The position numbers and the translations under genes are program-made. From contig DATEZQ010000003.1 of the NCBI GenBank assembly GCA_035583355.1, forward strand, positions 65,844 through 129,843: DNA of 64,000 bases, given 5' to 3'. The stretch is from Minisyncoccota bacterium. GTDB taxonomy: Bacteria; Patescibacteriota; Minisyncoccia; Phycocordibacterales; UBA6899. Each line of letters starts with the position of its first letter. Position 1 is the stretch's first letter. This document shows, in pieces, positions 27,253 to 42,404 of the stretch. The notes below the pieces were generated by a model. The model was not told the origin of the DNA. It did not search any database and saw nothing but the letters and a program-made list of their open reading frames with translations.

Positions 27253-28668
27253 TTAATATAGTGGAAAACCTTGATCGGATGCTTCTGTTTTAGGAAGTAC
27301 AGGTGCCTTTATTCCTTCACAAAGTAGTTGCCCAGATACATAACCACCATTTTTGCTCGTGTTCTTAATACAACGATCATCGAGTTCCGTTTTTCCATCT
27401 GAAGCAATCTTATTGCACCACCACCAACCTGGAGTTTGATTACCATTCATACAGATATGGAAGTGAGCGCCCGTATAGTGTGCAGATGCACCTGGTGTGC
27501 TCTCGTCAGTGTACCAAACATCATCATAGAGGTAACGTACATTGTTAGAGAATGAACGAGAAATGTATTCTGCTTTTGTCTTCAAGAAGAGGTCAAGATC
27601 TGGGGTTTTATTGATGTCCATCACATCAGGGTGGTTTGGTCCATGAGTGTTGTGTCCAGGCTCTGTTCCCCCATTGACGAGTACTGGGCAGCTCCACTTA
27701 TTTGACTCAGTACAGTTATCTTGTTTTGTAAACTGTCTTCCGAGGTTAATAAGTTTGTTAAGGATTTCATCATTAAGTCCTGCGAGGTTGGTGCATGAGG
27801 TAGCAACAGCGTTTGGACAAGATGGTTTATTTGTGAAAATATGCTGGCTTGCGAGTCTTTCTCTAGCATCTTGTTCCGCGAATGACATTGCGGCGCCAAA
27901 AATTTGAGAGCACTCTTTTGTTTCAATTTTTAACTCCTTTGGTTCCGGTGCATCCTTAAGTGCCTTAAGTGTGTCTTCACAACTTCTCTGATCACCGAAT
28001 GGTCCCCTCCAAAAATAATGCTTTTCAGTTGAGGTAAGGAAATACCAGCCCTTACCGTTAATACCCTCTCGTATTACGCGCGGGTTTGCTATTGTTCCAT
28101 CGGCATTTAAGATAGGGCTTCCATCGGGATTTACTGGTGCTCCTGTTGCAGCATCAAAGAGCTGTAGCTTGAATTTTGCTTGCGCAGTAGAGGAGGCAAT
28201 AAGAAGATTCTCAGTGACTAATTTAGGGTTTAGTGTGTTAAGGAAAATCCAAGATCCTGCAATAAGTCCAAGCCCCCCAACAATTGCAATCATTTCACTG
28301 CGTACTTTTGAGAATGCGTTTACTTTTTCTGCACTTGTGATGATAGTGAAGCCTACCATGACAAGTCGGACGACACCGATCACTCCTCCGATACCAATAA
28401 GGAAGCGTACCCATTTCTTCAGATAGTCCGATAGTGCATTATCGTCACGCAGGTCCACTGTGCCACTGAAGTATCCCGTGAGGGGTGCGATATACGTATA
28501 GCGACCGTTTGCCTCATCAATTTGCTCCTGAGGTGTTCCGGGATCAGAAGTCACCTGTGTCGGTGTTCCTGGTGCACCCTGAGCATGAACTACTAGTGGT
28601 GCAAGAATGGGGATGCTCAAGGTAAACAGGAGAAGTGTTGCCGCAGAAAGTTTTTTTAATATTTTCAT
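27253..28668 (-). CDS. Secreted or membrane protein: signal peptide, two TM helices (pilin or VirB2-like hydrophobic hairpin) and a Cys- and His-rich C-terminal domain
   Basis: Signal MKILKKLSAATLLLFTLSIPILAPLVVHA. TM segments LIGIGGVIGVVRLVMVGFTIITSA and IAIVGGLGLIAGSWIFL. C-terminal domain with at least 12 Cys and HNTHGPNHPD and HYTGAHFH motifs. Confidence 0.55.
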   Translation of the reverse strand: MKILKKLSAATLLLFTLSIPILAPLVVHAQGAPGTPTQVTSDPGTPQEQIDEANGRYTYIAPLTGYFSGTVDLRDDNALSDYLKKWVRFLIGIGGVIGVVRLVMVGFTIITSAEKVNAFSKVRSEMIAIVGGLGLIAGSWIFLNTLNPKLVTENLLIASSTAQAKFKLQLFDAATGAPVNPDGSPILNADGTIANPRVIREGINGKGWYFLTSTEKHYFWRGPFGDQRSCEDTLKALKDAPEPKELKIETKECSQIFGAAMSFAEQDARERLASQHIFTNKPSCPNAVATSCTNLAGLNDEILNKLINLGRQFTKQDNCTESNKWSCPVLVNGGTEPGHNTHGPNHPDVMDINKTPDLDLFLKTKAEYISRSFSNNVRYLYDDVWYTDESTPGASAHYTGAHFHICMNGNQTPGWWWCNKIASDGKTELDDRCIKNTSKNGGYVSGQLLCEGIKAPVLPKTEASDQGFPLY

Positions 28669-28670
28669 AA

Positions 28671-29978
28671 CTATTCGGTTATTGTTGTTTCTGCTCCTGT
28701 TTCACTACTGGTTTGGACTGCTGTGCCATTAAGTTTATACATCCAAAGGTGATCGTTTGTTCTATTTTTGAAATATACAGCCGTTTGTGTTGGAAGTAAT
28801 GAAACCATGTCGATAGAAGTCTTGAAGTTTACTGGATTGACAAGGAATTTCTCCGTGTGTGTAGGGAGGTTGTAGAGCCATAGACTATCTGATGATTGAG
28901 TAATTCCTTTATACCAATCATCAGGAGTATTTTGGTAGACAATATCTGATGCCCCGCAATAGAGTATCGTTGTGTCACTCGTCCATGCACATTTTTCTGC
29001 AATTGCCGCGAATGGGAGAATGGTTGGATCACGTGATGAGTCTGGTGTCGACTCTCTTATTTCCGCAGTGAATTGATCCCCGAAGAGTGCTGCTGAGTAT
29101 GCGACATCCCCCTCAGGTGAAAGAAGAGTTGTTTGACCAGTGTTTGCTTTTACACTCAGGACTAACCCGCCTTTTTCGATACGATATGTGCCACTTTTCG
29201 CATATCGAGAAGCTTTTGCAGAAAGATAGACTGTACCATTATTTGTTATGGCAGGAATCCACTCCGTGAGCGGGAGTGTTGCCTGGCGTACGAGTTTTTG
29301 TGTAGCAACGTCAAGCACGTCAATGTTTGCGCCAAGCGGGTCTTTAATTACAAGTACTACTTTTTGTTTATTTGGGCTTGCTGCATACTCAAGTATGTTA
29401 TCTGCAAGCGCTATTGGTCCATTAAGTGTTAAAGGGTACTCGTTTCCCTGCTGCTCGACGATTGTATATAACCTAGTCTTAATGGTGTCACGATTATCAA
29501 GTGAACGAAGAATGAGGCTTGCATCGCTCAAGAAGATTCCGTCGTGTACTTGGAGGATTGGTTGATCGCTCATTACTTTTGCAACACCAGTATTTATGTT
29601 GATTTCAACAAGACGCCCTTTTGCTCTGTCAAACCCGCGAATCGTATATCCGTTTGGGAGTATGGTATATCCTGCAAGGGGACCGTTGTATATTTCAATT
29701 AGTTTTGGGGCTTCAACTCCAACACCAGATCCACTACCCTGCGTGGGTGATTCCCCTTTTGGTATATCGGAAGCACCTTGTTCAATTACATTTCCACCAA
29801 TTGGGAAAGTTCCTCCTTCGGGCGCCACTTTTCCTTTTGTGAGAAATATATAGAGGAAATAGATTCCACCAAGTACAAGAAGGATAAGAATACTCAGTAG
29901 TAAAATATTACGTATTTTTTTCTTACGTATATCTTGCTCACTTGGAGCCTGGTTTAATTGTGGTGTAATGTCATCCAT
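28671..29978 (-). CDS. Membrane-anchored protein with a predicted beta-propeller-like periplasmic domain
   Basis: N-terminal TM ILLLSILILLVLGGIYFLYIFL followed by a repetitive beta-rich sequence. No catalytic motifs recognised. Confidence 0.5.
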   Translation of the reverse strand: MDDITPQLNQAPSEQDIRKKKIRNILLLSILILLVLGGIYFLYIFLTKGKVAPEGGTFPIGGNVIEQGASDIPKGESPTQGSGSGVGVEAPKLIEIYNGPLAGYTILPNGYTIRGFDRAKGRLVEININTGVAKVMSDQPILQVHDGIFLSDASLILRSLDNRDTIKTRLYTIVEQQGNEYPLTLNGPIALADNILEYAASPNKQKVVLVIKDPLGANIDVLDVATQKLVRQATLPLTEWIPAITNNGTVYLSAKASRYAKSGTYRIEKGGLVLSVKANTGQTTLLSPEGDVAYSAALFGDQFTAEIRESTPDSSRDPTILPFAAIAEKCAWTSDTTILYCGASDIVYQNTPDDWYKGITQSSDSLWLYNLPTHTEKFLVNPVNFKTSIDMVSLLPTQTAVYFKNRTNDHLWMYKLNGTAVQTSSETGAETTITE

Positions 29979-29981
29979 AAA

Positions 29982-30941
29982 TTAGTTTTCTGAGAATATC
30001 CAAGCAAATGCACCTTTTGCGAGCTGCATCACGTTGACTGTGTTTTGTGCAGTGTAGTTTATTGAAATTTTACCTGATGTTTTTTTGTCTTCTGACCGCG
30101 AGAGTGTTACTCGTTCAAATGCGCGTCCGAAGCCCTCTTGGATATTCTTGCCTCCCGCTTCCCAGTTATATTGTATTTCCCCTCGATCTCGTTCACTGAG
30201 TGCGACACCATAGGGTACTGCGAGCACTGAAAGTTCTACCCCGTTGTTTTTTACTTGTCCCTGTAACGTAGACTGCGTGCGGACCCCTTCGAGTGGAGAG
30301 ATTTCATAGAAAAGCGCTGAGGGAACATATGAAGTGATGCGTATGTTCTCGGATATGGTCAATTCTCCTAGTTTCGCTTCAACAGTGATGGGTGTCGCAG
30401 TTTTTTCCCAAGCGCCAAGGAACTGGGCACTTGTACGATTCACACCCTTTGCAAGTGTAATAGTACTATCTTTTTTCCAATTGAATTCCGGAAATACTCC
30501 TGTGTTGTTTTGTCCGAAAAATGGAACAGCATAGGTGCGCACAATGCTTTCATGAGAAGGAAGTGCTTTGCCGTGAAAAAATGGCGGAACACTCGTTTGC
30601 GCCTCCCAGAGTACATCAATGATCGCAGGTGTGAGTGTGAGCGCTTCTTTGTAGGCCCTATCACCTACAGTGATTGCTGCCGTCACGTTGATGGGAACAC
30701 CAACAGGGCCGAGTGTGACCGTTTGGGAGGTACGACCAAGTCCTTCGCCGAGAAGTTGTCCATTCACAGACCAAATAATCTGTGCGCCCCCAAGATCAAC
30801 AAAAGATGAAGCAGCGCGTACGGTTATTGTTTGGTTTGGCGCAAGATTGCCTTCACTCGTGAGATTGATGACACCCCGGGCGAAAACAGCGCTTGGAGCG
30901 AGGAGGCCGATAGTGAGTATTGTGAGAAATATGTTTTTCAT
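29982..30941 (-). CDS. Secreted hypothetical protein (320 aa). The ORF track extends to 31091; the likely start is the internal MKNIFLTILTIGLL
   Basis: A signal peptide appears only from the internal Met. The adjusted start removes the overlap with the upstream gene. Confidence 0.5.
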   Translation of the reverse strand: MKNIFLTILTIGLLAPSAVFARGVINLTSEGNLAPNQTITVRAASSFVDLGGAQIIWSVNGQLLGEGLGRTSQTVTLGPVGVPINVTAAITVGDRAYKEALTLTPAIIDVLWEAQTSVPPFFHGKALPSHESIVRTYAVPFFGQNNTGVFPEFNWKKDSTITLAKGVNRTSAQFLGAWEKTATPITVEAKLGELTISENIRITSYVPSALFYEISPLEGVRTQSTLQGQVKNNGVELSVLAVPYGVALSERDRGEIQYNWEAGGKNIQEGFGRAFERVTLSRSEDKKTSGKISINYTAQNTVNVMQLAKGAFAWIFSEN

Positions 30942-31803: not shown

Positions 31804-33567
31804 TTAAGTTCCGCTAATTTGTGCTTTTGCGCGCTTGATGGCGAGCATTTGTGCGGGGTCTGACGATACGATTTGGTCCTCAGTATATGATGCATATACC
31901 TTCATTGCTACATGCTTAAGACCTGCAAAGAAGATGCCTTCTCCAACTCCCGATTCTAGGAGAAGATATTTCTCTTCGTCGGTAAGGTGAAATGCACTCT
32001 GTACAGTATCAATGGTCATTGGTGACTGTTTGAGGAGAATCTGGATCGATGAATTTGTGAGAATGGGTAGTCCGTAAGGTGACTTTAGGAAGTCATTGAC
32101 GTCTTGGGTGATTGTTGCAATACCAAGGTAGTATTTACGCCCTCGCTTTGCAAGACCGAAGAGGAAGGATGCAGTATCTTCTGATTTCATCATGATCCAT
32201 GCCTCATCAACAATAAGCAATCGCTTGCGAAGTTCTTTGCGCACTGCGGTCCAAATATGGTGCGTAATGATGTGCATTGCGACCGTCTTAAGCTCGTCCT
32301 CCATGTTTCGGATCGAGAAGACGGTAAAGCGCTTTGTGATGTCGACGTTTGTTGGCTGATTAAGGAAGCCAGACCATGTACCACGAGTGAATTTCTCCAT
32401 GCGTTGGAGCAGGTTTTCGGTACCCTCCATCCCTGAAAGTACCATCTCGAGGTCGGTTAAGAGCGGTGGCTCAATCTCTGCCCACTGTGAATTCTCATTT
32501 ATATCCTTCATCGCATAGGTCTCCGAAATCGCGCGATCCATGATTCCATCTTCAACAGGAGAAAGACCTCCAAGCATAACTCGGAAAAGTCCGATAAGGA
32601 AAATGATATTTGAGCGAAGTACGTCACCAAATGATTCATCCTCTCCAGGCATAGGAAGGTCAAACGGGTTGATGTGGTGCTCTGAGGTGAGTGAGATGTT
32701 GAAGTAGCGTCCTCCGGTTGCTTCTGCAAGATAGAGATATTCTTGCTCTGGGTCGATGACGATGACATCAGCATCGAACATCAGTGTACGGATGACTTCA
32801 AGCTTTGTGGTGTATGATTTTCCTGATCCTGAACTTGCGAACATGACCGAGTTGTAGTTTGGCATCGAGAAACGGTCAAATAGGACAAGTGATGCATTGT
32901 GTCGATTGATCCCCCATAGAATTCCTTTGTCTGAGGTTAGGTCAAATGAAACAAATGGGAAGATCGAAGATAATGGTGCCGAGTTGAGCTTGTAGTGTAC
33001 TTCAAGTTCATCAGTTGCAATAGGAAGCACCGAACGGAACCCCTCTTCTTGCTGGAAGATGGTTGGTTTCACATAGACCATTTTTGCATCGAGGATAGAC
33101 TTCACTTCGCCTTCAACACGATCGAGATCCGCTTTGTCATTGGCATAAATGGTGATATATAGGCCGACATCAAATAGTTTTTCTGATGCTTGCTGGAGTC
33201 CATCACGCAAATCCTCGAGATCTTGATATGCAGTATCGAGCATAGGATCACGTACGAGACCTTTTGATTCTCGGTCTGATATCTGACTCTGTACCTCAGC
33301 AACTTTCTTTTGGAATGCATGAAGCGCCTCCTCCGTTGAGATAGGGTGAATATGAATCGAGATGTCGAATGCTTTGTCGAGATTAATAATTGGTGTGAAC
33401 CAGTCTTGGGTGAGATTGCGCGGGTACGAGATGACGAACATTGTACGCGCCATTTTTGATCCAATGTAGAGTTCGTTTGGGGTGATCTTGACTGCAGCGG
33501 GTGCGAGAATATCCTTGAGTGAGGCATCACTTGAGCCAAGAGCATCCTGGGAGAGCATGTTTTCCAT
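31804..33567 (-). CDS. virB4: VirB4/TrbE/PrgJ-family type IV secretion ATPase, C-terminal ATPase part (587 aa)
   Basis: Walker A FASSGSGKSYTTK, Walker B RLLIVDEAWIMMK, and YPRNL...W region typical of VirB4. Confidence 0.8.
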   Translation of the reverse strand: MENMLSQDALGSSDASLKDILAPAAVKITPNELYIGSKMARTMFVISYPRNLTQDWFTPIINLDKAFDISIHIHPISTEEALHAFQKKVAEVQSQISDRESKGLVRDPMLDTAYQDLEDLRDGLQQASEKLFDVGLYITIYANDKADLDRVEGEVKSILDAKMVYVKPTIFQQEEGFRSVLPIATDELEVHYKLNSAPLSSIFPFVSFDLTSDKGILWGINRHNASLVLFDRFSMPNYNSVMFASSGSGKSYTTKLEVIRTLMFDADVIVIDPEQEYLYLAEATGGRYFNISLTSEHHINPFDLPMPGEDESFGDVLRSNIIFLIGLFRVMLGGLSPVEDGIMDRAISETYAMKDINENSQWAEIEPPLLTDLEMVLSGMEGTENLLQRMEKFTRGTWSGFLNQPTNVDITKRFTVFSIRNMEDELKTVAMHIITHHIWTAVRKELRKRLLIVDEAWIMMKSEDTASFLFGLAKRGRKYYLGIATITQDVNDFLKSPYGLPILTNSSIQILLKQSPMTIDTVQSAFHLTDEEKYLLLESGVGEGIFFAGLKHVAMKVYASYTEDQIVSSDPAQMLAIKRAKAQISGT

Positions 33568-33577: not shown

Positions 33578-34189
33578 TTATTTTACAACCGCTGTTTCAA
33601 GTTCTCCGGGGTTGAATTTTTTATAAAAGATCTCGGTCACCTCTTCTGTTCCAAGCGGTGCGGTGCGAATATCACAACCCGAAAGACCTTGCTGGACTAC
33701 TGCGACGCGTTGTTCGAGCTGCATGCGTGCTTCTTCAAATGAACGTGCTGAGTCCACAGGTATTGCTCCACTTGCATTCCCTTTTGCGTCCTTCTTTACA
33801 CTTGATGCAAAAGGAACCACAACGAAGAAGCTCTTCGACATGATATTCGTACGATTAGTAAAATCGCGAATGAACGCAATATACTCATGCACTTGGATTT
33901 TCATTGCGTCGACAAGTTGCGCCTTTTCACGCTCCTCAAGGAGTCTTAGGTAGGGACGAATATCAAGACGTTTACTTTGAACAACGATTTGTATCGAGAA
34001 GTCGAGACTATTGAGAAAGTTTTGAAATTGGCCGAGAAGCGCAGTCTGTTCATCTGCGGATTTAAGTCCAAAATTAAGAGTTGAGGTGATGAGAATACGA
34101 CGAAGCTCGCCATTTTCAAGCACGATAATACCATCGCGAATTTCGCGAATAGGAACAAAGTTTTGTGCTGGTTTTCCTGGAACTGCCAT
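33578..34189 (-). CDS. virB4: VirB4 N-terminal domain encoded as a separate ORF (frame differs from the downstream ATPase ORF; 10-nt gap). The start is likely MAVPGK (the ORF track extends to 34270)
   Basis: IREIRDGIIVLENGELRRILITSTLNFGLKSADEQ...FQNFLNSLDFSIQIVVQSKR matches the VirB4/TraC N-terminal domain. The combined length 230 + 587 aa equals a typical single VirB4. Confidence 0.6.
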   Translation of the reverse strand: MAVPGKPAQNFVPIREIRDGIIVLENGELRRILITSTLNFGLKSADEQTALLGQFQNFLNSLDFSIQIVVQSKRLDIRPYLRLLEEREKAQLVDAMKIQVHEYIAFIRDFTNRTNIMSKSFFVVVPFASSVKKDAKGNASGAIPVDSARSFEEARMQLEQRVAVVQQGLSGCDIRTAPLGTEEVTEIFYKKFNPGELETAVVK

Positions 34190-34259: not shown

Positions 34260-34667
34260 TTACATATCAACTTTCCAGTTCAGTTCACCTAGTCTGCTTG
34301 AGCTTGGGGCAGAGGCCTCGGCTGCAGTGCTTTTTGTTGTCTTGTAGCGCGACATATCAACAACACGCTTTTTTTCTGCAGTCTTCTTCTGCGGGCGCCA
34401 GATGTAAAGTCTTGGTCTGATGTAGTAGAAGAATGCAGCAGCGACGATATTGATGAATGGGCGATTGTTATATTTGTAGAAAGCGAGTAGCCCACCGAAA
34501 GAAAGTAGCCCAATTGCTACAAGTACCCCTATGGCTGAGACGGGGATCGCAGTATACGCTACATAGGCAAGTGCAACTGTTCCCGCAATATAAAGAAACT
34601 GCTTTAGGGTCAGTGGTCCAACGATCTTGTCTTCAATGTCAATGAATTGTGGTACTTGGAATTGCAT
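34260..34667 (-). CDS. PrgI/VirB3-like small membrane protein
   Basis: 135 aa. IDIEDKIVGPLTLKQFLYIAGTVAL followed by two TM helices and FINIVAAAFFYYIRPRLYIWR, resembling PrgI-family proteins encoded upstream of VirB4 in Gram-positive T4SS. Confidence 0.5.
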   Translation of the reverse strand: MQFQVPQFIDIEDKIVGPLTLKQFLYIAGTVALAYVAYTAIPVSAIGVLVAIGLLSFGGLLAFYKYNNRPFINIVAAAFFYYIRPRLYIWRPQKKTAEKKRVVDMSRYKTTKSTAAEASAPSSSRLGELNWKVDM

Positions 34668-35456: not shown

Positions 35457-36017
35457 ATGAATCGCATGTTGCGTTTCGTATTTGGGCCCGTATTCTTTCT
35501 GTATTACATCTTCTCGACATACTCAAGTTACAAAAGATATGCAGGTGGCGGCGATTTGCGTGGGCAAGCGTTCGAGGTGGTGGGTACGGTATGGCTTGTC
35601 GCGGCCCTGCTGGTGTTCATCATCCTGCTGCGAAATTGCCTTGGGAAGACGGCATCTGCTCGGCCGAGCTATGTAAGTCTTATCACAAGTGCGCTTCTTG
35701 TATATTTTGCGACCAAATGGCTCGCCGGACTCTGGATCTGGATGTCGGTGCGTTCTACGGGGAGCCTCACTGGTTTCCTTGGAAACATTCCCCTCCTCTT
35801 TCTTTCATTTTTCTTGCTTTGTGTTGTTCCGGTATCCTTTGGGTTTTTCATCAAGGCACACGCAGCAACAAAAGAAAAGAAGGGTGCACCAAAGCCTCCA
35901 GAGTCTCCTCGCTATGTACGCGAGGAAATCGTGAAGACCAGGAGTGGCTTAAAGATGAAAAAGATAGTGAAAGCCTTCAAGGGTAAGACGGTTATCGACT
36001 ATGAGCTTGCCTCGTAG
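35457..36017 (+). CDS. Hypothetical integral membrane protein (186 aa, 4 TM) with a Lys-rich C-terminus. The ORF track starts at 35118; the start is taken at the RBS-preceded ATG
   Basis: Preceded by GGAGG and the promoter above, and followed by a terminator at 36034..36056 (cgggcc-ttt-ggcccg plus T6). Confidence 0.6.
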   Translation: MNRMLRFVFGPVFFLYYIFSTYSSYKRYAGGGDLRGQAFEVVGTVWLVAALLVFIILLRNCLGKTASARPSYVSLITSALLVYFATKWLAGLWIWMSVRSTGSLTGFLGNIPLLFLSFFLLCVVPVSFGFFIKAHAATKEKKGAPKPPESPRYVREEIVKTRSGLKMKKIVKAFKGKTVIDYELAS

Positions 36018-36033: not shown

Positions 36034-36056
36034 AGCGGGCCTTTGGCCCGTTTTTT
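36034..36056 (+). terminator. Rho-independent terminator (cgggcc-ttt-ggcccg plus tttttt)
   Basis: GC stem with a T-run 17 nt after the stop. Confidence 0.65.
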
Positions 36057-36103: not shown

Positions 36104-38728
36104 TTATTTTTTCTTCTTCCCGCCTTTGCCAGAAAGAGCACTGAGAAGCTTCTCCTTCTGTTTTTTGTTTGTTGTGATACTGTCGATATCCGCAATCGCT
36201 TTTTCTGCTGCTGCCTCAATCGCACTATCTCCCCTATCAGACGCGCTTCTTACGTATGCTGCAAGCGCACCAGGATGGATGTTTCTTAATACGTCGGGAT
36301 CGAAGACCACATTTGGAGTAAGTTCTTTGATCTCGCGTGCATCCATTGCCTTGATTGTTTCAGTGATTGCATTTTTATCTGCATCTGACCTACTTGCTCC
36401 TGCTGCGGGAAGAGATGCAGTCACGGACTGTGTGAGGTCTTCTTTGAAATCGATATTGAAACCACTTGTGCCCTTCACCGCACTATTTGCAAGATAGGTC
36501 TTTACTGCTTCGCTTCCAGTCTTTCTCAATTCTTTTGCCATGACATCGAGTTTATCAACTTGCTCTTTTGTATAAGCAGTTTGACTGAGAATTAATTTCT
36601 CTATTGCTCCAAGGTGTGCGGCGTTGAGTGCGTTGTTCTTTGCAAGGAGGTCAAGTGTTTCTACATCAAGGGTTGCAACATCATCAGTCTTTACGTTGCG
36701 TACTGCATCGATGAGTGCCTTCTGCTTCTCTTGCTGTTTCTCGATCTGCACAAGCTTTTCTTTTGCAACCTGTTTTGCTTCAGCGGTGGTAGCTCTATTG
36801 TATGCTTCCTGCGCATCCTTATGCGCATTCTTGTCATACTTTGCTGCTTCCTTAATGTGATCTTTGTTGTTAAGCAAGCCCTTTGATTCCTCTGTGCGAA
36901 TCTGAGAGTTGATTTTGTCATTAATCTCCTTGAACTCTTTCTTGCCTCCCGTGTCACCAAAGATTTGTGTAAGCGCTTCTTTTTGCTTAACGGGATTATC
37001 CTTGAACTGTTTCTCGATTGCACCAACAACCGCCTTGCGTGCATCTTTACCTTCATCGCCCTCAAAGCGTGTTTTGCCCATGCCAAGTGTTGTCTGAAGC
37101 ATTGCTGCTGCTGCGCGTGGATCATCTCCATAACGAGCAACGATATCTTTAACCAACTCTGCTTCACGTGCCTTGAGTGCATTCTCTGATGCAGCCTTGC
37201 CACCGCCTGCAACCTGCAGACCGCTTCCGAGTCCGGCAGCAACGCTACCAAGTTTACCTCCCTTTGCTGTGCCATAACTTGCGACACGAGCGCCTACAGC
37301 ACCGACGCCAGCGAGACCACTGCCATCCTTTGCAAAGGTTCGTGATCCGGCTTTGCCTGCGCCCATGCCACCCATTTGACCTTCTGCGAATCCATATGCA
37401 CGAGATGCGCGTACGTCGAATGAAGATTGCGCCGCCTTTTCTCCGCCGCGCACCAGAAGGTTTCCTGCGGTCTTACTTATGCCTCCTCTATTGATCATGT
37501 CTCTTGTGAATTGAGACTTCGAGAGTGCTCCACCTGCTGCTCCAATAGTGCTTCTTCCTGCCCAAGCAGCACCAGAAGAAATCTTCCCCATTGCGAGTCC
37601 GCTCAACTTTGAGCCATAGCTGGCTGCCTGACCTCCAACCGCTTTGGAGTATTTGAGCGCCATTACCATAAGCAAGGTAATGATGATGTAGTTGATGATG
37701 ATGGAGAAGCTGCCTGATTCGGCAGTAAGCGCCTTTGCAAGTGAGGCGCCCGAGCCCTTCACTCCGAACATGTCTGAGGTGCGTACAAAGACCACCGTTA
37801 CATAGGTGATGAGCAAGAATATGATTGGAAAGAGTGCTTGAGCCTGTAGTGCGTTGGTCCACTCTGACTTAATCTTATTGATTGCAGAAAAATTGAGTGT
37901 GTACGAGAGGAAATAGAGTGGCGAGGTTAGCATGAGAATCATCAAGATTCCAATGCGAACAATGAACATAAACGCAGACGCGAAGAAAATGAGTGTGGTA
38001 ATCATCATGAATAGCGCTCCTCCGAGATAGATGATGACACGATTGAGTGGAGCAAGCTTCACACCATTTTGATCAAGTGCACTCTGTAGATTAAGACCAT
38101 CTGCGAGTGCATGTGCGGGTCCATAGAGGATTTGTCCCGCACCTGACCCGGTTGTTGAGCTGGAGGTCGTGGTCGAAACTTTGTAGTAGAGACCACGTGC
38201 GACCATGTTTGATGCATCAATGACGACCTTCGTGAAAAAGAGGCTGAAATTGATAAGGAGTGCAGCGATGACGAGATTCTTAAGTGCTTTCTGTGTGCCA
38301 CTCGTATCAATGTCAGAGAGACTGAGTAGTTGCTTGAACGCAATGGCGAGTACTGCGAAGATGAATGTGGAGTTAACGAGGTCACGTGCGAAGGTCCAGC
38401 CGATATTGATGAACTTCATTCCCGAGTAGGTACTTCCTCTTGTGGAGAAATCTATTGCGAAATCGAAGAGGTAGGCCGAGAGTGCGAAGACAAGGCCCAC
38501 AACTTTGAATATAACCCATGCGAGCCCCGCAAGTATCTCACCTATTCCATCAAGGATGCCATCAGTAAGCCAGTTCGCTTCTGCGAGTGCGGGACTGACA
38601 TGGTGTTGTTGTAAAACGATAGGAATCAAGAAAAGCGCAATCATGAGAGTCGCCAACGGAAAAAATCGCGCCGGTGTGCGCGCCTTTTCTAGTGTGGCTT
38701 GCATGAATTTACGTAGCATTTCCTCCAT
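36104..38728 (-). CDS. VirB6/TrbL-like polytopic membrane protein with a long Gly/Ala-rich and coiled-coil C-terminal extension (874 aa)
   Basis: At least 7 predicted TM helices in the first 420 aa, then a hydrophilic region with GxGxG repeats and a KEKLVQIEKQQEKQKALIDAV coiled coil. Family assignment by architecture only. Confidence 0.4.
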   Translation of the reverse strand: MEEMLRKFMQATLEKARTPARFFPLATLMIALFLIPIVLQQHHVSPALAEANWLTDGILDGIGEILAGLAWVIFKVVGLVFALSAYLFDFAIDFSTRGSTYSGMKFINIGWTFARDLVNSTFIFAVLAIAFKQLLSLSDIDTSGTQKALKNLVIAALLINFSLFFTKVVIDASNMVARGLYYKVSTTTSSSTTGSGAGQILYGPAHALADGLNLQSALDQNGVKLAPLNRVIIYLGGALFMMITTLIFFASAFMFIVRIGILMILMLTSPLYFLSYTLNFSAINKIKSEWTNALQAQALFPIIFLLITYVTVVFVRTSDMFGVKGSGASLAKALTAESGSFSIIINYIIITLLMVMALKYSKAVGGQAASYGSKLSGLAMGKISSGAAWAGRSTIGAAGGALSKSQFTRDMINRGGISKTAGNLLVRGGEKAAQSSFDVRASRAYGFAEGQMGGMGAGKAGSRTFAKDGSGLAGVGAVGARVASYGTAKGGKLGSVAAGLGSGLQVAGGGKAASENALKAREAELVKDIVARYGDDPRAAAAMLQTTLGMGKTRFEGDEGKDARKAVVGAIEKQFKDNPVKQKEALTQIFGDTGGKKEFKEINDKINSQIRTEESKGLLNNKDHIKEAAKYDKNAHKDAQEAYNRATTAEAKQVAKEKLVQIEKQQEKQKALIDAVRNVKTDDVATLDVETLDLLAKNNALNAAHLGAIEKLILSQTAYTKEQVDKLDVMAKELRKTGSEAVKTYLANSAVKGTSGFNIDFKEDLTQSVTASLPAAGASRSDADKNAITETIKAMDAREIKELTPNVVFDPDVLRNIHPGALAAYVRSASDRGDSAIEAAAEKAIADIDSITTNKKQKEKLLSALSGKGGKKKK

Positions 38729-38844: not shown

Positions 38845-40488
38845 TTATGGTGTCGTCGGTGTTGTTGTTGCAGTTGAGTCATCCTCAATGAATGTTCCGT
38901 TTCCATCAATCATTTCCTGGTTGAGCATCGTGCGATCATAGATCTTGAGCATTGCTCCTGTTGCCCAATCAACAGTTCCTGATTGAATGTCGAAGTAGCC
39001 ATTCTGTATCGAATTGAAGAAATCGCCAATCAGCTTATTGATATCCTGATCAGGGACGAAGTCTTGAGTATTTACCTCTGAGAGTCCCTTATCGAAGATA
39101 CTTGTTGATTGTGCCCCGTTCTTATCTGCTGCAGTCAAGTCACCCTCTGATTTTGCCTCAATAAATTGCTTGTCTTGCTGTCCAGCATATTCAGAGATGC
39201 GATCGCCAATGACCTTGGAAGCTGTGACAATCTTTGAGTAGCGAATATCACAGTTCGGATCATCAGGATCACACTTGCGGTCGGGGAGAATACCGCCACC
39301 TGCGATATAATCGGTCTTTGTCTGCTCCTTGATTTCGGCAAGTTGTCTCGATTGTGCATTTTGGAGGGCAAGGCGTGCACCAGGGCCAGTGTTCTGGTCG
39401 TTCAGCATTAAGTCCTGCCAAATCTTGAGCCCATCCTGCTGCCCCGAATTCATATCTTTGAGGTAGGTGTTGTAGTCTGATTCCTTCGCAAATAAGCCAT
39501 TTTCTGGATCAGTAGGGTCTGTGAGCGTACAGCTTACTTGTTCGCCAAGTGCATCAAGTGGATCGACTGCTTCCTGGTGGCCAGCCTGCAAGAGAGCACG
39601 TGCGGCATCGTATTTTGCAGGTGCACATATTTGGAGTGAGTCTGGTGCATCAGACTTTCCAAGAATTCGTTGCTGCAAGGTGCGTGTGCGTGATTCTGCG
39701 AGTGAGTTCGCGTATTGTGTGGGTTGTCCACCAATAAGTGAGAAGTTCTCTTCTGAGATCACATTGCCTTCACTGTCCTTGATGGTGCGTGAGAGGCCCT
39801 GTTGTGCTATTTCAAGATTTGCCTTCGCAATGATACCCGAAGTACGCTGTGCAAGGCTTGTCGCCTGTGCGGACTCAATGTAATCTCGAAGCATGCTGTG
39901 GATCTGAAGGTTGAGCGCAAGCTTATTTTGCTCAACGAGCTCTTGGAGGAGACAGGAGAGCGAGGTGGAGTTGTTGACTTGAACAGTACTGTAGTCCCCT
40001 GCTGATTCGTCGATGACACCCTTCGTGTAGAGAACGTTCCATGCACTGTTTTCATCCAGTCCTGTGGCGGTATTACTGCTTGTAATGGGGCGTAGTGAAC
40101 AGCCTTTTAGGGTTGGGTCCTCATTATCAGGGTCTGCGGGATCAATCATTTTACCACCAGCACTAAATGGATTTTTGCCCGGGAGAAAGAGCTCCGCGGT
40201 CTCTCCGGGTGCCGGATTGAGCGAGAGAAGTGCGCGGAGTGATCCTTGCTCGTCGTCGTGGATCAGTTTTTCAAACTTAGTCGCATAGGCATCGAATGCA
40301 GCCTTTTGACTAGCGGTATTTTGCTGAATCGAGGCAAGTGTTGCTCCCGCAGCACCATCAACAACGGGCACATAAAGTCCGAGCGCTTCTGCCTTTTCCG
40401 GAGCTCCATATGCAAAAACCAAGCCGAGAAGCAAGGTCGAAAAAAGTATTGAATGTGCGCGTGTACGCATACGTACAGTATACCACAT
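38845..40488 (-). CDS. Secreted hypothetical protein (about 540 aa)
   Basis: Signal peptide from the internal MRTRAHSILFSTLLLGLVFAYGA. Thr-rich C-terminus. Confidence 0.5.
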   Translation of the reverse strand: MWYTVRMRTRAHSILFSTLLLGLVFAYGAPEKAEALGLYVPVVDGAAGATLASIQQNTASQKAAFDAYATKFEKLIHDDEQGSLRALLSLNPAPGETAELFLPGKNPFSAGGKMIDPADPDNEDPTLKGCSLRPITSSNTATGLDENSAWNVLYTKGVIDESAGDYSTVQVNNSTSLSCLLQELVEQNKLALNLQIHSMLRDYIESAQATSLAQRTSGIIAKANLEIAQQGLSRTIKDSEGNVISEENFSLIGGQPTQYANSLAESRTRTLQQRILGKSDAPDSLQICAPAKYDAARALLQAGHQEAVDPLDALGEQVSCTLTDPTDPENGLFAKESDYNTYLKDMNSGQQDGLKIWQDLMLNDQNTGPGARLALQNAQSRQLAEIKEQTKTDYIAGGGILPDRKCDPDDPNCDIRYSKIVTASKVIGDRISEYAGQQDKQFIEAKSEGDLTAADKNGAQSTSIFDKGLSEVNTQDFVPDQDINKLIGDFFNSIQNGYFDIQSGTVDWATGAMLKIYDRTMLNQEMIDGNGTFIEDDSTATTTPTTP

Positions 40489-40535: not shown

Positions 40536-41408
40536 TTAGCGATTTAAGCTTGTATTGATTTTGTTGATCTGCTTCTGGCACAATGCGATTTGTCGGTTCG
40601 TTTGATCTTGAAGATTCTTGAGATAGCGCTGTCGTGCTTTGATTTTTGCATCGATGGTTTTTTCGAGATTCTTGTAACGCGTCAGGATTTTCTCTAGATG
40701 CTTGATGCGTTGAATAGTGCCACCCCTAGTGAGCAAGAGCACTGTCTTGCGCAAGCCCATTGCTACCGTCTTGAGCGAAGCAGTGTCAAGCGATAGACTC
40801 ATTGATGAGTAGATATTCGCTATCGCAAGGCCATCACTAACAATATCATCGGTGAGTACGAATGCGGACTCAATGACGAATTCATAGTCCTCGACGAGCT
40901 GGTCGAACATCGCAGTAATTTCATTCACTGATTTTTCTACCATAAGCGCAACCCCATCCAAGTTATTCGCCATCATGTCGAGCGTGTTTGCAGTACAAAG
41001 GAGTGAGCGGGTGAGATTATCTCCAGGACTGATGTCACGCACATAAGGCTTAATGGTCATTTCACCACGATAGGTACCCTTCGTGCCATAGTAGATTGCA
41101 GTGATTTTATAGATATTTGGCTCGAGCGCTGTACTCCCCTTCCCTGTGCGGAATGAATAGTAGGGGTAGTTTGACTCAGGGTTTACCAACTCGTCGTTGA
41201 CACGCCACTCGATAGTTGCCTCATCTGCAATTTCTCCGCGCGGAATTACTAGGGAGAGAATGACGCGCTGGAATGCTGCAGGGTATGAGGGGGAAGAGCG
41301 AATGACAAGTGGCTTTGGTTCCTGCGCAAGTGCCTTCATTGGGAATGCAAAAGCAATTGGCGCTATCGTAAGCGAGGTGGTGATGAGGAATGTGATAAGT
41401 CTTTTCAT
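40536..41408 (-). CDS. Secreted hypothetical protein with a C-terminal coiled coil
   Basis: Signal MKRLITFLITTSLTIAPIAFAFPMKALA. Confidence 0.5.
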   Translation of the reverse strand: MKRLITFLITTSLTIAPIAFAFPMKALAQEPKPLVIRSSPSYPAAFQRVILSLVIPRGEIADEATIEWRVNDELVNPESNYPYYSFRTGKGSTALEPNIYKITAIYYGTKGTYRGEMTIKPYVRDISPGDNLTRSLLCTANTLDMMANNLDGVALMVEKSVNEITAMFDQLVEDYEFVIESAFVLTDDIVSDGLAIANIYSSMSLSLDTASLKTVAMGLRKTVLLLTRGGTIQRIKHLEKILTRYKNLEKTIDAKIKARQRYLKNLQDQTNRQIALCQKQINKINTSLNR

Positions 41409-41420
41409 AGATGTATATTG

Positions 41421-42404
41421 CTATTTTGCTTTCGTGCTTGTTGCTGTGGTTGCTTGTCCTGCCCAGCGGAAGTAGTAGCCTGGTTCGCTTGCAAGAAAGG
41501 TGATGTCCTTGTCATGGAGCACATTTACGATCCCCGCGTAACCCCTGATGATTGGAAGCGTTTGTGCAAGATATGTTTGCCAACCCGCTCCTCCAATAAC
41601 TGGGTTCGAGAAGAGTTTTGTGGTGAGGTAGAGTGAGCGACTCATGACGTCGTACCCATTTACAATATTGAGGTGATGCTCTGCAAATATCGAAGGTGTG
41701 GGGAGTTTGAGGAGGTCATTTGTGAAATTGCGATATGCAATTGCGGAGAGCTCAAGTCGTTGTAAGTCGCTCTGCTTCTTTGTTTCAAGCGCTTTCTTCA
41801 AGATGTCCGCTTCTGCTTCGACGTCCTTGCTTGTGTATATTTGAATAATCTTCCCGAAATCATTTGCATAGGTACGTAATGTTTCTGGAGAATTGTCAGA
41901 AATGACGGCAAGGTCGCTCAGGGTGCGCCGAGGTTGTACTTGGCTCGCATCGAAACTTTTCACGAGGTCTTGCACTGTGCTCGAGCGGATCTTTTCCACT
42001 TCTTTCGAAAGAAACTCCGAATAGAATTTTTTCTTTGCTTCGTCGACATCAGTTGTCGTTGCGTTTCCGAGTGACAGTACATACAAGATATCATCAGGGC
42101 CTTTTTTGGTAGGGTTATGTCCCGTGCGTACTTCTGCTCCGTCTTGTACACCATCACCATCGGTATCAGGGTTCGTGGGATCGGTGCCATATACTGCCTC
42201 TTCCCAATCAGGGAGCCCATCATTATCAGTATCAGTTTCTTGTTGCATCAGTGCGGTGGCAGGGGCTGCTTCATCAATCTTGCCACTTGGCTTACCTGAA
42301 TCTTTTGAGGGGAGCATGTAGATACCAACACCCACGATTCCTGCGGCCACAAAAGTGCTCAAAACGAGTGGAGAAGAGAGGTGCGTGCGTATGCGCTCAA
42401 TCAT
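41421..42404 (-). CDS. Membrane-anchored protein with Asp-rich calcium-binding-type repeats (thrombospondin type 3-like DxDxDGxxD)
   Basis: N-terminal TM helix, then TDTDNDGLPDWEEAVYGTDPTNPDTDGDGVQDGAE. Confidence 0.5.
   Translation of the reverse strand: MIERIRTHLSSPLVLSTFVAAGIVGVGIYMLPSKDSGKPSGKIDEAAPATALMQQETDTDNDGLPDWEEAVYGTDPTNPDTDGDGVQDGAEVRTGHNPTKKGPDDILYVLSLGNATTTDVDEAKKKFYSEFLSKEVEKIRSSTVQDLVKSFDASQVQPRRTLSDLAVISDNSPETLRTYANDFGKIIQIYTSKDVEAEADILKKALETKKQSDLQRLELSAIAYRNFTNDLLKLPTPSIFAEHHLNIVNGYDVMSRSLYLTTKLFSNPVIGGAGWQTYLAQTLPIIRGYAGIVNVLHDKDITFLASEPGYYFRWAGQATTATSTKAK

What the first reader, a model, noticed from the sequence alone, without database searches (positions are those of the whole stretch)
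27253..42404. Type IV secretion-like or DNA-uptake-like gene cluster without relaxase or coupling protein
The minus-strand cluster contains a PrgI/VirB3-like small membrane protein (34260..34667) immediately upstream of a VirB4-family ATPase (33578..34189 plus 31804..33567). It also contains a candidate VirB6/TrbL-like polytopic protein with a long Gly/Ala-rich and coiled-coil extension (36104..38728), two further membrane proteins, three secreted proteins, a membrane-anchored beta-propeller-like protein, a protein with an Asp-rich Ca-binding repeat, and a TM protein with a Cys- and His-rich ectodomain.

No VirD4, relaxase, VirB11 or recognisable VirB9/VirB10 was seen. This suggests a minimised T4SS-like apparatus used for something other than conjugation, for example DNA uptake or host-cell interaction, as proposed for episymbiotic small-genome bacteria.

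Most components are unannotatable by motif, so the system is probably poorly described.
Basis: partly seen in the sequence, partly recalled or inferred. Interest (0 to 1): 0.72.

Follow-up and report, generated by a model that had tools for sequence, protein, structure and literature searches.

The report
This is a real type IV secretion-like gene cluster next to the replication origin of a small-genome Parcubacteria/Paceibacteria bacterium, and it belongs to the relaxase-less "Patescibacteria T4SS" described in 2023-2025, so it is not a new kind of system.

Summary
Thirteen ORFs lie at 27253-42404: twelve on the minus strand and one small gene on the plus strand.

**Core genes**
- A PrgI/VirB3 protein.
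- A TrsD-like protein that matches the N-terminal part of VirB4.
- A 587-aa VirB4 ATPase.
- An 874-aa VirB6-fold protein with a long C-terminal extension.
- A VirB2/T4SS-pilin-like protein carrying a conserved Cys/His-rich C-terminal domain.

**Context**
- The cluster lies beside yidC-jag, about 2.4 kb from dnaA at its near end (VirB4 about 7 kb), and about 3.4 kb from the rpmH/rnpA/yidD ORFs.
- There is no relaxase, coupling protein, VirB11, integrase, tRNA gene or att-like repeat in the 64 kb window.
- Gene order is conserved in 80 Paceibacteria-type genome loci.
- VirB4 is more conserved than DnaA in 42 of 43 of those loci.
- The "split" VirB4 is an ancestral two-gene arrangement, not a pseudogene. 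The same PrgI-TrsD-VirB4 order occurs on a Geobacillus plasmid.

All of this matches the Patescibacteria-clade T4SS, which derives from monoderm MPF-FATA conjugation machinery (PMC12102498; Wang 2023, PMC10633639).

**Not described in the papers read**
- Three conserved extracytoplasmic partners: a three-domain Ig-like protein, a TolB-like propeller protein and a TSP3 calcium-repeat protein.
- The C-terminal domain on the pilin-like protein.

Function is inferred, not shown: a non-conjugative, host-contact conduit.

The parts
41421..42404 (-). Membrane-anchored protein (one N-terminal TM helix) with bacterial TSP3 calcium-binding repeats and an unassigned C-terminal domain of about 220 aa. Conserved accessory gene at the upstream end of the cluster.
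   Evidence: Pfam TSP3_bac 9.7e-13. TM helix at residues 13-31. Found in 36 of 80 related loci in the same position. A family profile against PDB matches only Ca-binding loops.
40536..41408 (-). Secreted or anchored 290-aa protein of unknown function, lineage-specific.
   Evidence: N-terminal hydrophobic segment at residues 4-22. No family hit. Present only in L001 and L002.
38845..40488 (-). Secreted 547-aa protein of unknown function, lineage-specific.
   Evidence: N-terminal hydrophobic segment. No Pfam, NCBIfam, PHROG or PDB hit. Present only in L001 and L002.
36104..38728 (-). Extended VirB6/TrbL-like polytopic membrane protein. Residues 1-360 form the VirB6 fold, 361-520 are Gly/Ala-rich, and 521-874 form a charged helical extension.
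35457..36017 (+). Opposite-strand gene for a small membrane protein with several hydrophobic segments (about 186 aa) inside the cluster. Membership in the system is uncertain.
   Evidence: 38% identical homologue in L001 in the same relative position and orientation. Best promoter-like match of the region (11 of 12, with TG) at 35400-35428. Called as a 183-aa gene on the Logan contig of the same organism.
34698..35354 (-). 218-aa soluble Pro-rich protein of unknown function, lineage-specific.
   Evidence: No TM segment. No significant family hit. Found in 4 of 80 loci.
34260..34667 (-). PrgI/VirB3-like small membrane protein, the membrane anchor partner of VirB4.
   Evidence: Pfam PrgI 4e-9, above the gathering score. 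Two TM helices. Found in 74 of 80 loci upstream of TrsD-VirB4 (on the same strand in all but 4).
33578..34189 (-). TrsD-like protein that corresponds to the extreme N-terminal part of full-length VirB4 ATPases. A separate gene, 10 nt upstream of virB4.
   Evidence: NCBIfam hits, all below cut-off: TrsD 1.3e-5 (profile positions 26-200 of 201), VirB4_plasma 2e-7, CD1110 VirB4 positions 2-132, TIGR00929 positions 7-180. Precomputed Pfam TraC-like. 31% identity (1e-24) to the ORF between PrgI and VirB4 on Geobacillus plasmid pGspE55-1. A separate ORF in 77 of 80 loci, about 210 aa in most. No profile similarity to the VirB4 ORF's own N-terminus.
31804..33567 (-). VirB4-family ATPase, the signature motor of the T4SS.
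   Evidence: Pfam P-loop_TraG 4.8e-25, AAA_10, DUF87, CagE_TrbE_VirB. PDB 4AG5 VirB4 4.5e-33. Walker A and B present. 65-97% identical in 80 of 80 Paceibacteria-type loci against 26% to a Firmicute plasmid VirB4.
30949..31731 (-). About 260-aa protein with three TM helices and charged flanks, lineage-specific, function unknown.
   Evidence: TM segments. No family hit. Present only in L001 and L002.
29982..30941 (-). Secreted protein of three tandem Ig/FnIII-like beta-sandwich domains. Conserved accessory gene downstream of virB4 (directly, or after the small lineage-specific gene 30949-31731 as here).
   Evidence: Signal-peptide-like N-terminus. Found in 66 of 80 loci at this position. AlphaFold pLDDT 69.7, all-beta. 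Foldseek hits are generic multi-Ig/FnIII arrays, including the adhesins SiiE and InvD.
28671..29978 (-). Membrane-anchored protein with a probable TolB/PD40-type beta-propeller ectodomain. Conserved accessory gene. Some relatives carry a peptidoglycan-binding domain.
   Evidence: TM helix at residues 25-43. Found in 54 of 80 loci. A family profile gives consistent but weak TolB hits, E 0.03-0.3. Homologues in L004 and L013 have PG_binding_1 (about 2e-4, just below the gathering score), and the L004 homologue also has PD40 at 7e-3.
27253..28668 (-). VirB2/T4SS-pilin-like protein (signal peptide plus two hydrophobic helices) fused to a conserved extracytoplasmic Cys4 + Glu/His/Asp/HxH domain of unknown fold.
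   Evidence: TrbC 2.6e-4 and T4SS_pilin 0.07 on the N-terminal part, both below cut-off. 82 of 115 family members hit T4SS_pilin, best 4.7e-12. C-domain residues E336, H339 and D351 are invariant; four Cys, H342, E389, H402 and H404 are nearly invariant. At least 150 representative clusters. No PDB or Pfam match for the C-domain.

Best explanation
[quoted passage not shown] It descends from the conjugation machinery of monoderm bacteria (MPF-FATA, pGO1-like, with a separate TrsD).

**Shown here**
- It encodes a VirB4 ATPase with its TrsD-like N-terminal partner, a PrgI/VirB3 anchor, an extended VirB6-fold channel subunit and a VirB2-type pilin-like protein.
- Three extracytoplasmic partners are conserved across Paceibacteria: a triple Ig-like protein, a TolB-like propeller protein and a TSP3 calcium-repeat protein.
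- It is a fixed part of the region around the replication origin.
- It has no relaxase, coupling protein or mobile-element features within 64 kb.

**Inferred mechanism**
- VirB4, docked on VirB3 and VirB6 in the single membrane, powers assembly of a wall-spanning channel or short pilus-like structure built from the VirB2-like protein.
- The Ig-like, propeller and calcium-repeat proteins scaffold this structure in the cell wall or bind the host surface.
- The structure contacts the host cell of this presumably epibiotic bacterium and acts as a conduit for macromolecules.

**Direction of transport**
- The neighbourhood lacks a coupling protein, which is the receptor for cytoplasmic export substrates. 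From my own knowledge, the T4SS relatives that run on VirB4 alone (H. pylori ComB, Sulfolobales Ced) are importers.
- I therefore favour attachment and uptake of host material (about 40%) over protein export to the host (about 30%).

Confidence in the identity of the system is about 0.9. Confidence in the functional step is much lower.
For: **Core components**

**Relation to monoderm plasmids**
- The PrgI-TrsD-VirB4 order is collinear with Geobacillus plasmid pGspE55-1.
- Identity to that plasmid is 26% for VirB4 and 31% for the TrsD-like protein.

**Relation to Parcubacteria**
- The VirB4 homologues sampled (the 120 closest listed; the 80 best loci) are 65-97% identical. The named ones are Lloydbacteria, Paceibacterota or Nomurabacteria.

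**Synteny**
- The order g327...VirB6-PrgI-TrsD-VirB4-Ig-(pilin)-propeller-yidC-dnaA-dnaN recurs across 80 loci.
- dnaA lies 3.4-7.3 kb from virB4 in 43 of the 49 loci that have enough flank.
- VirB4 is more conserved than DnaA in 42 of 43 loci.

**Origin location**
- The cumulative GC-skew minimum falls at about 22-24 kb. Perfect DnaA boxes lie at 23020 and 24951.
- dnaA, dnaN, yidC and jag are identified. rpmH, rnpA and yidD are identified on the Logan contig of the same organism.

**No mobile-element features**
- No relaxase, T4CP, VirB11 or integrase hit. No tRNA genes. No flanking direct repeats. No GC discontinuity.

**Literature**
- PMC12102498 describes exactly this: a monophyletic Patescibacteria VirB4 clade nested in MPF-FATA; TrsD, PrgI, VirB6 and VirB2-like genes near virB4; dnaA/dnaN proximity in Paceibacteria; and relaxases nearly absent.
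- PMC10633639 shows that the T4SS genes, including the pilins, are essential for epibiotic growth of S. epibionticum.
- A 2026 preprint (10.64898/2026.06.21.733656) reports tubular structures at the parasite-host interface that may be T4SS pili, and acquisition of host RNA.
Against: - Nothing in the sequence shows what is transported, or in which direction.
- The window is only 64 kb. VirD4-like genes are reported elsewhere in most Patescibacteria genomes (PMC12102498), so a distant coupling protein cannot be excluded.
- The window's own pilin-like and VirB6-like proteins do not reach Pfam thresholds. Both assignments rest on relatives and on a predicted fold.
- The pilin-like protein carries a C-terminal domain of about 330 aa, which is hard to reconcile with packing into a canonical VirB2 filament.
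- No VirB8-like or clear VirB1-like protein was identified.
- The epibiotic lifestyle of this particular organism is assumed from its lineage.
- The essentiality data come from Saccharimonadia, not Paceibacteria.
Confidence: 0.85

Rival explanations
1. A protein-export T4SS. The apparatus injects or releases effector or toxin proteins into or onto the host bacterium, as effector-translocating T4SSs do.
For: - Wang 2023 (PMC10633639) suggests the Saccharimonadia system 'may instead export proteins'.
- Several secreted or surface proteins of unknown function are encoded in the cluster.
- All the core export-type parts (VirB3, VirB4, VirB6) are present.
Against: - No coupling protein or VirB11 in the window.
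- The in-cluster secreted proteins have Sec-type signal peptides, so they do not need a T4SS to leave the cytoplasm.
- No recognisable toxin or effector domain was found.
Confidence: 0.3
2. A dedicated DNA-uptake (competence) machine analogous to H. pylori ComB or the archaeal Ced system.
For: - It has VirB4 as its only ATPase and no relaxase.
- ComM, a PilB-like ATPase and type IV pilin genes lie in the same window.
- In class ABY1 the T4SS loci sit next to comF, recG and radA (PMC12102498).
Against: - In S. epibionticum, competence depends on type IV pili and ComEC.
- Deleting comEC abolishes transformation but not viability, while the T4SS is essential. The essential role is therefore not ComEC-dependent DNA uptake (PMC12857230).
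- No ComEC or ComEA gene is in this cluster.
Confidence: 0.12
3. An ordinary integrative conjugative element, or its decaying remnant, with VirB4 broken by a stop codon.
For: - A TAA stop and a 10-nt gap separate the two VirB4-related ORFs.
- VirB4 is related to plasmid VirB4 proteins.
Against: - The two-ORF arrangement is present in 77 of 80 related loci, and in a Geobacillus plasmid.
- VirB4 is under stronger conservation than DnaA.
- Synteny beside the replication origin is fixed across the lineage.
- There is no integrase, relaxase, T4CP, tRNA gene, att repeat or GC shift.
Confidence: 0.02

Closest known systems
Patescibacteria-clade T4SS, Paceibacteria arrangement (Quinonero-Coronel et al. 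2025, PMC12102498)
   Same: - VirB4 with adjacent TrsD, PrgI/VirB3, VirB6 and a VirB2-like pilin.
- No relaxase or nearby T4CP.
- Located next to dnaA and dnaN, with ksgA, rnpA and rpmH nearby.
- Vertically inherited within the class.
   Different: Nothing essential differs. That survey leaves unannotated the conserved Ig-like, propeller-like and TSP3 genes. In the text I read, it does not mention the C-terminal Cys/His domain on the pilin-like protein.
Southlakia epibionticum ML1 T4SS, SEML1_0006-0019 (Wang et al. 2023, PMC10633639)
   Same: - An origin-proximal chromosomal T4SS of Gram-positive type.
- It has VirB2-like pilins and no recognisable relaxase or coupling protein in the cluster.
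- It is the experimentally characterised reference and is essential for epibiotic growth.
   Different: - It belongs to a different class, Saccharimonadia.
- It has an array of six divergent pilins, and a peptidase and lysozyme directly downstream of virB4.
- Here there is a single pilin-like gene with a fused C-terminal domain, and a different set of accessory proteins.
Monoderm MPF-FATA conjugative T4SS, pGO1 subclass (TrsC/TrsD/TrsE); the PrgI-TrsD-VirB4 module of Geobacillus plasmid pGspE55-1
   Same: The same PrgI, TrsD-like and VirB4 gene order. Detectable homology: 26% and 31% identity. Monoderm architecture without VirB7, VirB9 or VirB10.
   Different: - Those systems are plasmid-borne.
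- From my own knowledge of Gram-positive conjugative T4SSs (not checked here for pGspE55-1, which PLSDB types as non-mobilizable): they are conjugative, carry a relaxase and T4CP, and lack VirB2 pilins.
- This cluster is chromosomal and origin-linked, has no relaxase, and carries a VirB2-like protein.
VirB6/TrwI of plasmid R388 and DotA of the Legionella Dot/Icm system (solved structures 7O3V, 8RT9, 9NGY)
   Different: About 10% sequence identity. This protein has a C-terminal Gly/Ala-rich and charged helical extension of about 500 aa (an 'extended VirB6'). No VirB5 partner was identified.
H. pylori ComB and Sulfolobales Ced DNA-import systems (from my own knowledge)
   Same: T4SS-related machines that use a VirB4-type ATPase, lack a relaxase and coupling protein, and move material inwards.
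   Different: No homology beyond VirB4-type parts was tested. ComB is a diderm VirB2-10 set. Ced is archaeal. The substrate here is unknown.

Membership tests
Patescibacteria-clade T4SS (PMC12102498) | VirB4 belongs to the monophyletic Patescibacteria clade | tested here: inconclusive
   - No tree was built.
- By similarity it fits. It is 65-97% identical to the VirB4 of 80 Paceibacteria/Parcubacteria genomes and to all 120 best database hits.
- It is 26% identical to a Firmicute plasmid VirB4.
- The paper places 2,425 of 2,474 patescibacterial VirB4 proteins in that clade.
Patescibacteria-clade T4SS (PMC12102498) | TrsD homologue encoded next to virB4 | tested here: met
   33578-34189 lies 10 nt upstream of virB4. 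NCBIfam TrsD 1.3e-5 over the whole model, plus VirB4 N-terminal models, all below cut-off. Precomputed Pfam TraC-like. Conserved in 77 of 80 loci.
Patescibacteria-clade T4SS (PMC12102498) | VirB3 (PrgI) homologue near virB4 | tested here: met
   Pfam PrgI 4e-9, 37.3 bits against a cut-off of 27. Two TM helices.
Patescibacteria-clade T4SS (PMC12102498) | VirB6 homologue near virB4 | tested here: met
Patescibacteria-clade T4SS (PMC12102498) | VirB2-like pilin near virB4 | tested here: met
   Signal peptide plus two hydrophobic helices. TrbC 2.6e-4, below cut-off. 82 of 115 family members hit T4SS_pilin, best 4.7e-12. Whether it polymerises is unknown.
Patescibacteria-clade T4SS (PMC12102498) | No relaxase associated; coupling protein not adjacent | tested here: met
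   No such Pfam family in any ORF of 120 aa or more in the 64 kb window. The rest of the genome was not available.
Patescibacteria-clade T4SS (PMC12102498) | Chromosomal location close to dnaA and dnaN (Paceibacteria) | tested here: met
   dnaA is at 23402-24817 and dnaN at 21818-22957. GC-skew minimum. DnaA boxes. The same holds in 43 of 49 related loci.
Patescibacteria-clade T4SS (PMC12102498) | Required for epibiotic growth | not testable with these tools
   Shown only for S. epibionticum by Tn-seq (PMC10633639).
Conjugative T4SS / integrative conjugative element | Relaxase and type IV coupling protein | tested here: not met
   None in the window.
Conjugative T4SS / integrative conjugative element | Integrase, att repeats, tRNA target or compositional island | tested here: not met
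   No integrase. No tRNA genes. Only short chance repeats inside genes. GC is 0.42-0.48, as in the flanks. Fixed synteny across the lineage.
Monoderm MPF-FATA T4SS (pGO1/pCF10/pIP501 type) | VirB8-like (PrgL/TraM) NTF2-fold bitopic protein | not tested
   - No sequence hit was found.
- The paper also rarely finds VirB8 outside class ABY1.
Monoderm MPF-FATA T4SS (pGO1/pCF10/pIP501 type) | VirB1-like peptidoglycan hydrolase in the cluster | tested here: inconclusive
   - There is no SLT, CHAP, NlpC or M23 hit inside the cluster.
- The C-terminal domain of 27253-28668 has a conserved E/H/H/D...E...HxH pattern that could be a metallohydrolase. It has no PDB or Pfam match; one relative scores Peptidase_M15_4 at 0.15, and one relative carries an SLT domain.
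- An M23-LysM peptidase lies 9 kb away at 51754-52857.

The most novel reading that the evidence does not exclude
The Paceibacteria version of the system may have an extracellular module found in no characterised T4SS.

- A VirB2-type membrane hairpin is fused to a conserved Cys4/His-Asp-Glu-HxH domain, a possible metallo-hydrolase. The family has at least 150 representative clusters.
- It works with a triple-Ig protein, a TolB-like propeller that binds peptidoglycan in some lineages, and a calcium-repeat protein.
- Together they would form an enzyme-armed, wall-spanning device that opens the host (or the cell's own) envelope and imports host macromolecules such as RNA. That would make this a feeding organelle rather than a secretion system.
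Probability: 0.15. Interest if true: 0.8.

Novelty: new member of a known kind. Interest (0 to 1): 0.3.

Why it matters
- The Patescibacteria T4SS is reported in 2,417 of 3,035 genomes surveyed from a huge, mostly uncultivated radiation (PMC12102498), and is the first T4SS shown to be essential for its bearer (PMC12857230).
- Its substrate and direction of transport are an open question that bears on how these tiny auxotrophic bacteria live off their hosts.
- This window adds no new kind of system. It gives a clean, complete Paceibacteria example.
- It shows that VirB4 here is conserved more strongly than DnaA.
- It points to four conserved but uncharacterised extracytoplasmic parts that would be natural targets for structure prediction and genetics: the Ig-like protein, the propeller protein, the TSP3 protein and the pilin C-terminal domain.

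Tried and rejected
1. **Pseudogene reading of the VirB4 split.** Rejected. The two-ORF form is conserved in 77 of 80 loci and on a Firmicute plasmid.
2. **TrsD as a duplicate of the N-terminus of the VirB4 ORF.** hhalign gave probability 0.2%. The two look like consecutive parts of a full-length VirB4, not paralogues. This is an inference from model positions.
3. **LAS/M15 zinc-peptidase identity for the pilin C-terminal domain.**
   - The motif idea came from reading the alignment.
   - A profile against PDB found nothing at E of 10 or less.
   - Pfam gave only one Peptidase_M15_4 hit, at 0.15. The single-sequence PDB hits were spurious alphaRep repeats.
   - It stays a hypothesis.
4. **tblastn of the VirB6-like N-terminus against plasmids.** No match.
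5. **PHROGs and NCBIfam on the unknown ORFs.** Nothing useful beyond TrsD.
6. **PDB searches for 41421-42404 (family profile) and 38845-40488 (single sequence).** Only calcium-loop similarity for the first and nothing for the second.
7. **The afdb50 fold library.** Unavailable.
8. **att-site search.** Only short chance repeats.
9. **Fold search of the Ig-like protein.** Only generic Ig/FnIII arrays, with no functional assignment.

Full report
**1. What is in the sequence**

The wider window is ordinary chromosome:
- On one side: polA, tsaE, a PilB-type ATPase, tdk, ruvB, ruvC, yebC, tyrS, a class A PBP, dnaN and dnaA.
- Between dnaA and the cluster: ORFs for yidD/rnpA/rpmH, then yidC and jag.
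- On the other side: three PG_binding_1+TIG proteins, ksgA, type IV pilins, a UvrD/PcrA-type helicase, an M23-LysM peptidase, a ZIP transporter, comM and pnp.

The cumulative GC skew has its minimum at about 22-24 kb. Perfect DnaA boxes flank dnaA at 23020 and 24951. The cluster therefore begins about 2.4 kb from dnaA, beside the replication origin. GC content is continuous with the flanks. There are no tRNA genes. There are no flanking direct repeats beyond short chance matches inside genes.

**2. Core T4SS parts**

- **VirB3.** 34260-34667 is a PrgI/VirB3 protein (Pfam 4e-9, above threshold; two TM helices).
- **VirB4.** 31804-33567 is a VirB4 ATPase.
  - Pfam gives P-loop_TraG 4.8e-25, AAA_10, DUF87 and CagE_TrbE_VirB.
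  - It matches the solved VirB4 C-terminal domain 4AG5 at 4.5e-33.
  - Walker A and B are intact.
- **TrsD-like protein.** The 203-aa ORF 33578-34189 ends with TAA, 10 nt before the virB4 start codon.
  - It matches the TrsD model over its whole length (1.3e-5).
  - It also matches the first 130-180 positions of three full-length VirB4 models (VirB4_plasma 2e-7, CD1110 1.8e-5, TIGR00929 0.06). All are below curated cut-offs.
  - A precomputed Pfam TraC-like hit is on record for the identical protein.
  - It shows no profile similarity to the N-terminus retained in the 587-aa ORF (hhalign probability 0.2%).
  - I infer that the two genes are consecutive parts of a VirB4, not duplicates.

The split is not damage:
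- All 120 listed VirB4 homologues are 558-612 aa.
- The TrsD-like ORF is separate in 77 of 80 related loci, about 210 aa in most.
- Geobacillus plasmid pGspE55-1 has the same PrgI, TrsD-like and VirB4 order, at 31% and 26% identity.

**3. VirB6**

The 874-aa protein has no Pfam hit of its own and no plasmid tblastn match. The VirB6 assignment rests on three results:
- Its N-terminal 400 residues have 34 database homologues, of which six hit Pfam TrbL/VirB6 (best 1.6e-6).
- An AlphaFold model built on that alignment has pLDDT 76.5 and pTM 0.71. Its three best Foldseek PDB hits are TrwI/VirB6 of R388, with E 6e-3 to 5e-2 and probability 0.97-1.0.

Residues 361-520 are 23% Gly and 19% Ala, and residues 521-874 are rich in Ala, Lys, Asp and Glu. 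This is an "extended VirB6" in the sense of PMC12857230. In the other loci it lies shortly upstream of PrgI. In this window two small genes lie between them. This is the position prgH holds in pCF10 (gene order from my own knowledge).

**4.

27253-28668 has a signal peptide and two hydrophobic helices, which is the VirB2/TrbC topology.
- The N-terminal part alone scores TrbC 2.6e-4 and T4SS_pilin 0.07, both below threshold.
- A full-library phmmer search with its C-terminal domain found at least 150 representative clusters.
- Of 115 members scanned, 82 hit Pfam T4SS_pilin (best 4.7e-12) and 7 hit TrbC.

The usual architecture of this family is therefore a pilin-like hairpin followed by this C-terminal domain.

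In the domain, E336, H339 and D351 are invariant. Four cysteines, H342, E389, H402 and H404 are nearly invariant. The pattern suggested a zinc hydrolase of LAS/M15 type to me, but I could not confirm it:
- No PDB match at E of 10 or less with a family profile.
- No Pfam match apart from one relative at Peptidase_M15_4 0.15.
- Spurious repeat hits only with the single sequence.

One relative carries an SLT lytic transglycosylase domain. The 2025 survey counts VirB2-like pilins but, in the text I read, does not mention this C-terminal domain.

**5. Accessory genes**

Three accessory genes are conserved with the core across Paceibacteria-type loci:
- **29982-30941** (66 of 80 loci). A secreted protein predicted as three Ig/FnIII-like sandwiches. 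pLDDT is 69.7 and the fold hits are generic.
- **28671-29978** (54 of 80 loci). One TM helix, then a probable TolB/PD40 propeller. TolB hits are consistent but weak, E 0.03-0.3. Relatives in two loci add a PG_binding_1 domain at about 2e-4, and one of them (L004) also scores PD40 at 7e-3.
- **41421-42404** (36 of 80 loci). One TM helix, TSP3 calcium repeats at 1e-12, and an unassigned domain.

Four genes are confined to the closest relatives: 30949-31731, 34698-35354, 38845-40488 and 40536-41408.

The plus-strand gene 35457-36017 is conserved in L001. It has the best promoter-like match of the region and is called as a gene on the Logan contig. A GC-rich terminator-like hairpin at 36036-36050 follows the VirB6-like gene. 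The cluster is therefore probably at least two transcription units.

**6. Comparative picture**

All 80 loci recovered from GTDB-species genomes with this VirB4 come from Parcubacteria/Paceibacteria-type MAGs: Paceibacterota, Nomurabacteria, Yonathbacteria, Vogelbacteria and Tagabacteria. Many carry a generic automated label.

The loci share the order (TSP3)...VirB6-PrgI-TrsD-VirB4-Ig-(pilin)-propeller-jag/yidC-dnaA-dnaN.
- dnaA lies 3.4-7.3 kb beyond virB4 in 43 of the 49 loci with enough flank.
- Median identity to the window across the 43 loci carrying all six genes is 68% for VirB4, 53% for DnaA, 51% for TrsD, 39% for PrgI, 35% for YidC and 34% for DnaN.
- VirB4 is the better conserved of the pair in 42 of 43 loci.

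That is the signature of a vertically inherited gene under strong constraint, not of a mobile element.

**7. Comparison with what is known**

Quinonero-Coronel et al. 2025 (PMC12102498) surveyed 3,035 Patescibacteria genomes. They report the following:
- A monophyletic Patescibacteria VirB4 clade nested in MPF-FATA.
- TrsD as the most abundant partner, with PrgI/VirB3, VirB6 and VirB2-like pilins near virB4.
- Almost no relaxases, and T4CP homologues mostly far from virB4.
- In Paceibacteria, proximity to dnaA, dnaN, rnpA, ksgA and rpmH.

Every one of these features is present here. The caveat is that I inferred clade membership from similarity, not from a tree.

Other relevant work:
- Wang et al. 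2023 (PMC10633639) showed that the Saccharimonadia counterpart, including its pilins, is essential for epibiotic growth. They noted the lack of relaxase and coupling protein.
- The 2025 review PMC12857230 calls it the first essential T4SS and speculates about uptake from the host.
- A 2026 preprint reports possible T4SS pili at a parasite-host interface, together with acquisition of host RNA.

The finding is thus a new member of a known kind.

**8. Mechanism**

Shown: the parts list, their conservation, the location beside the replication origin, and the absence of conjugation and mobile-element genes within 64 kb.

Inferred:
- VirB4, with TrsD, docks on VirB3 and VirB6. It powers assembly of a wall-spanning channel or pilus-like structure from the VirB2-like protein.
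- The Ig-like, propeller and calcium-repeat proteins scaffold it in the wall or bind the host.
- The structure mediates exchange with a host cell.

I favour attachment and uptake (about 40%) over protein export (about 30%), for three reasons:
- The receptor for cytoplasmic substrates is missing locally.
- The characterised VirB4-only relatives (ComB, Ced; my own knowledge) are importers.
- The essential role in S. epibionticum does not require its distant T4CP (PMC12102498).

A dedicated competence role is less likely. In S. epibionticum, competence needs type IV pili and ComEC, and comEC is dispensable for growth while the T4SS is not. A decaying conjugative element is effectively excluded.

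**9. Limits**

- Only 64 kb of the genome was available.
- Two structure predictions were allowed, so the propeller, TSP3, pilin C-domain and lineage-specific proteins remain unmodelled.
- The afdb50 library was unavailable.
- CONJScan profiles were not available.
- No experiment bears on function in Paceibacteria.

Noticed in passing
window 31804-33567 versus 23402-24817, across loci L001-L080: VirB4 is more conserved than the replication initiator DnaA. Median identity to the window is 68% against 53%, and VirB4 is higher in 42 of 43 loci that carry both. DnaN and YidC are at only about 34%.
   Followed up: yes
window 27253-28668 (residues about 262-420): The VirB2/T4SS_pilin-like protein carries a conserved C-terminal domain: four Cys plus E, H, H, D, E and HxH. 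The family has at least 150 clusters at 50% identity. It has no PDB or Pfam match. A metallo-hydrolase role is only a guess. The 2025 survey text I read does not mention this domain.
   Followed up: partly
window 35457-36017 (+), promoter-like site 35400-35428: A small membrane-protein gene with several hydrophobic segments sits on the opposite strand inside the cluster. It has a near-consensus extended -10 promoter-like site. It is conserved in L001 and is called as a gene on the Logan contig.
   Followed up: partly
window 42440-47678 (+); L003, L004, L013, L027: Three paralogous PG_binding_1 + TIG/IPT proteins are encoded divergently next to the cluster. In other genomes, similar genes sit inside or upstream of the cluster. 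A PG_binding_1 domain is fused to the propeller-protein homologue in at least L004 and L013, so these genes may belong to the system.
   Followed up: partly
window 11424-13310, 48986-49501, 52888-54243: Type IV pilus genes lie on both sides of the cluster. They are a PilB-type ATPase (T2SSE + MshEN) and two N-methyl pilins. One pilin has a weak BclA_C (C1q-like) C-terminal domain hit, below the Pfam cut-off.
   Followed up: no
window 2001-3197 and 3893-4996: Two glycoside hydrolase family 18 (chitinase-like) genes occur in a genome expected to be metabolically minimal.
   Followed up: no
window 51754-52857: An M23 peptidase with LysM repeats lies 9 kb from the cluster. It is a candidate stand-in for the missing VirB1-type wall hydrolase. 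PMC12102498 notes M23 and LysM domains on some VirB1 homologues.
   Followed up: no
window 22958-25068: Origin-region signals: perfect DnaA boxes at 23020-23028 and 24951-24959, and the cumulative GC-skew minimum at about 22-24 kb. Window-wide, the box count is not above chance: 23 observed against 15.6 expected.
   Followed up: partly
L081 (Geobacillus subterraneus plasmid pGspE55-1) 8567-17243: A Firmicute plasmid typed as non-mobilizable carries PrgI, a TrsD-like ORF, VirB4, a 907-aa unannotated protein and a large M23 peptidase, next to tad/T2SS-F-type genes. It is a monoderm relative of the core module.
   Followed up: partly
window 55082-56725 and 58477-60723: ComM (Mg-chelatase-like competence protein) and PNPase are both in the window. 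A 2026 preprint links PNPase and VirB4 to feeding on host RNA in this phylum.
   Followed up: no
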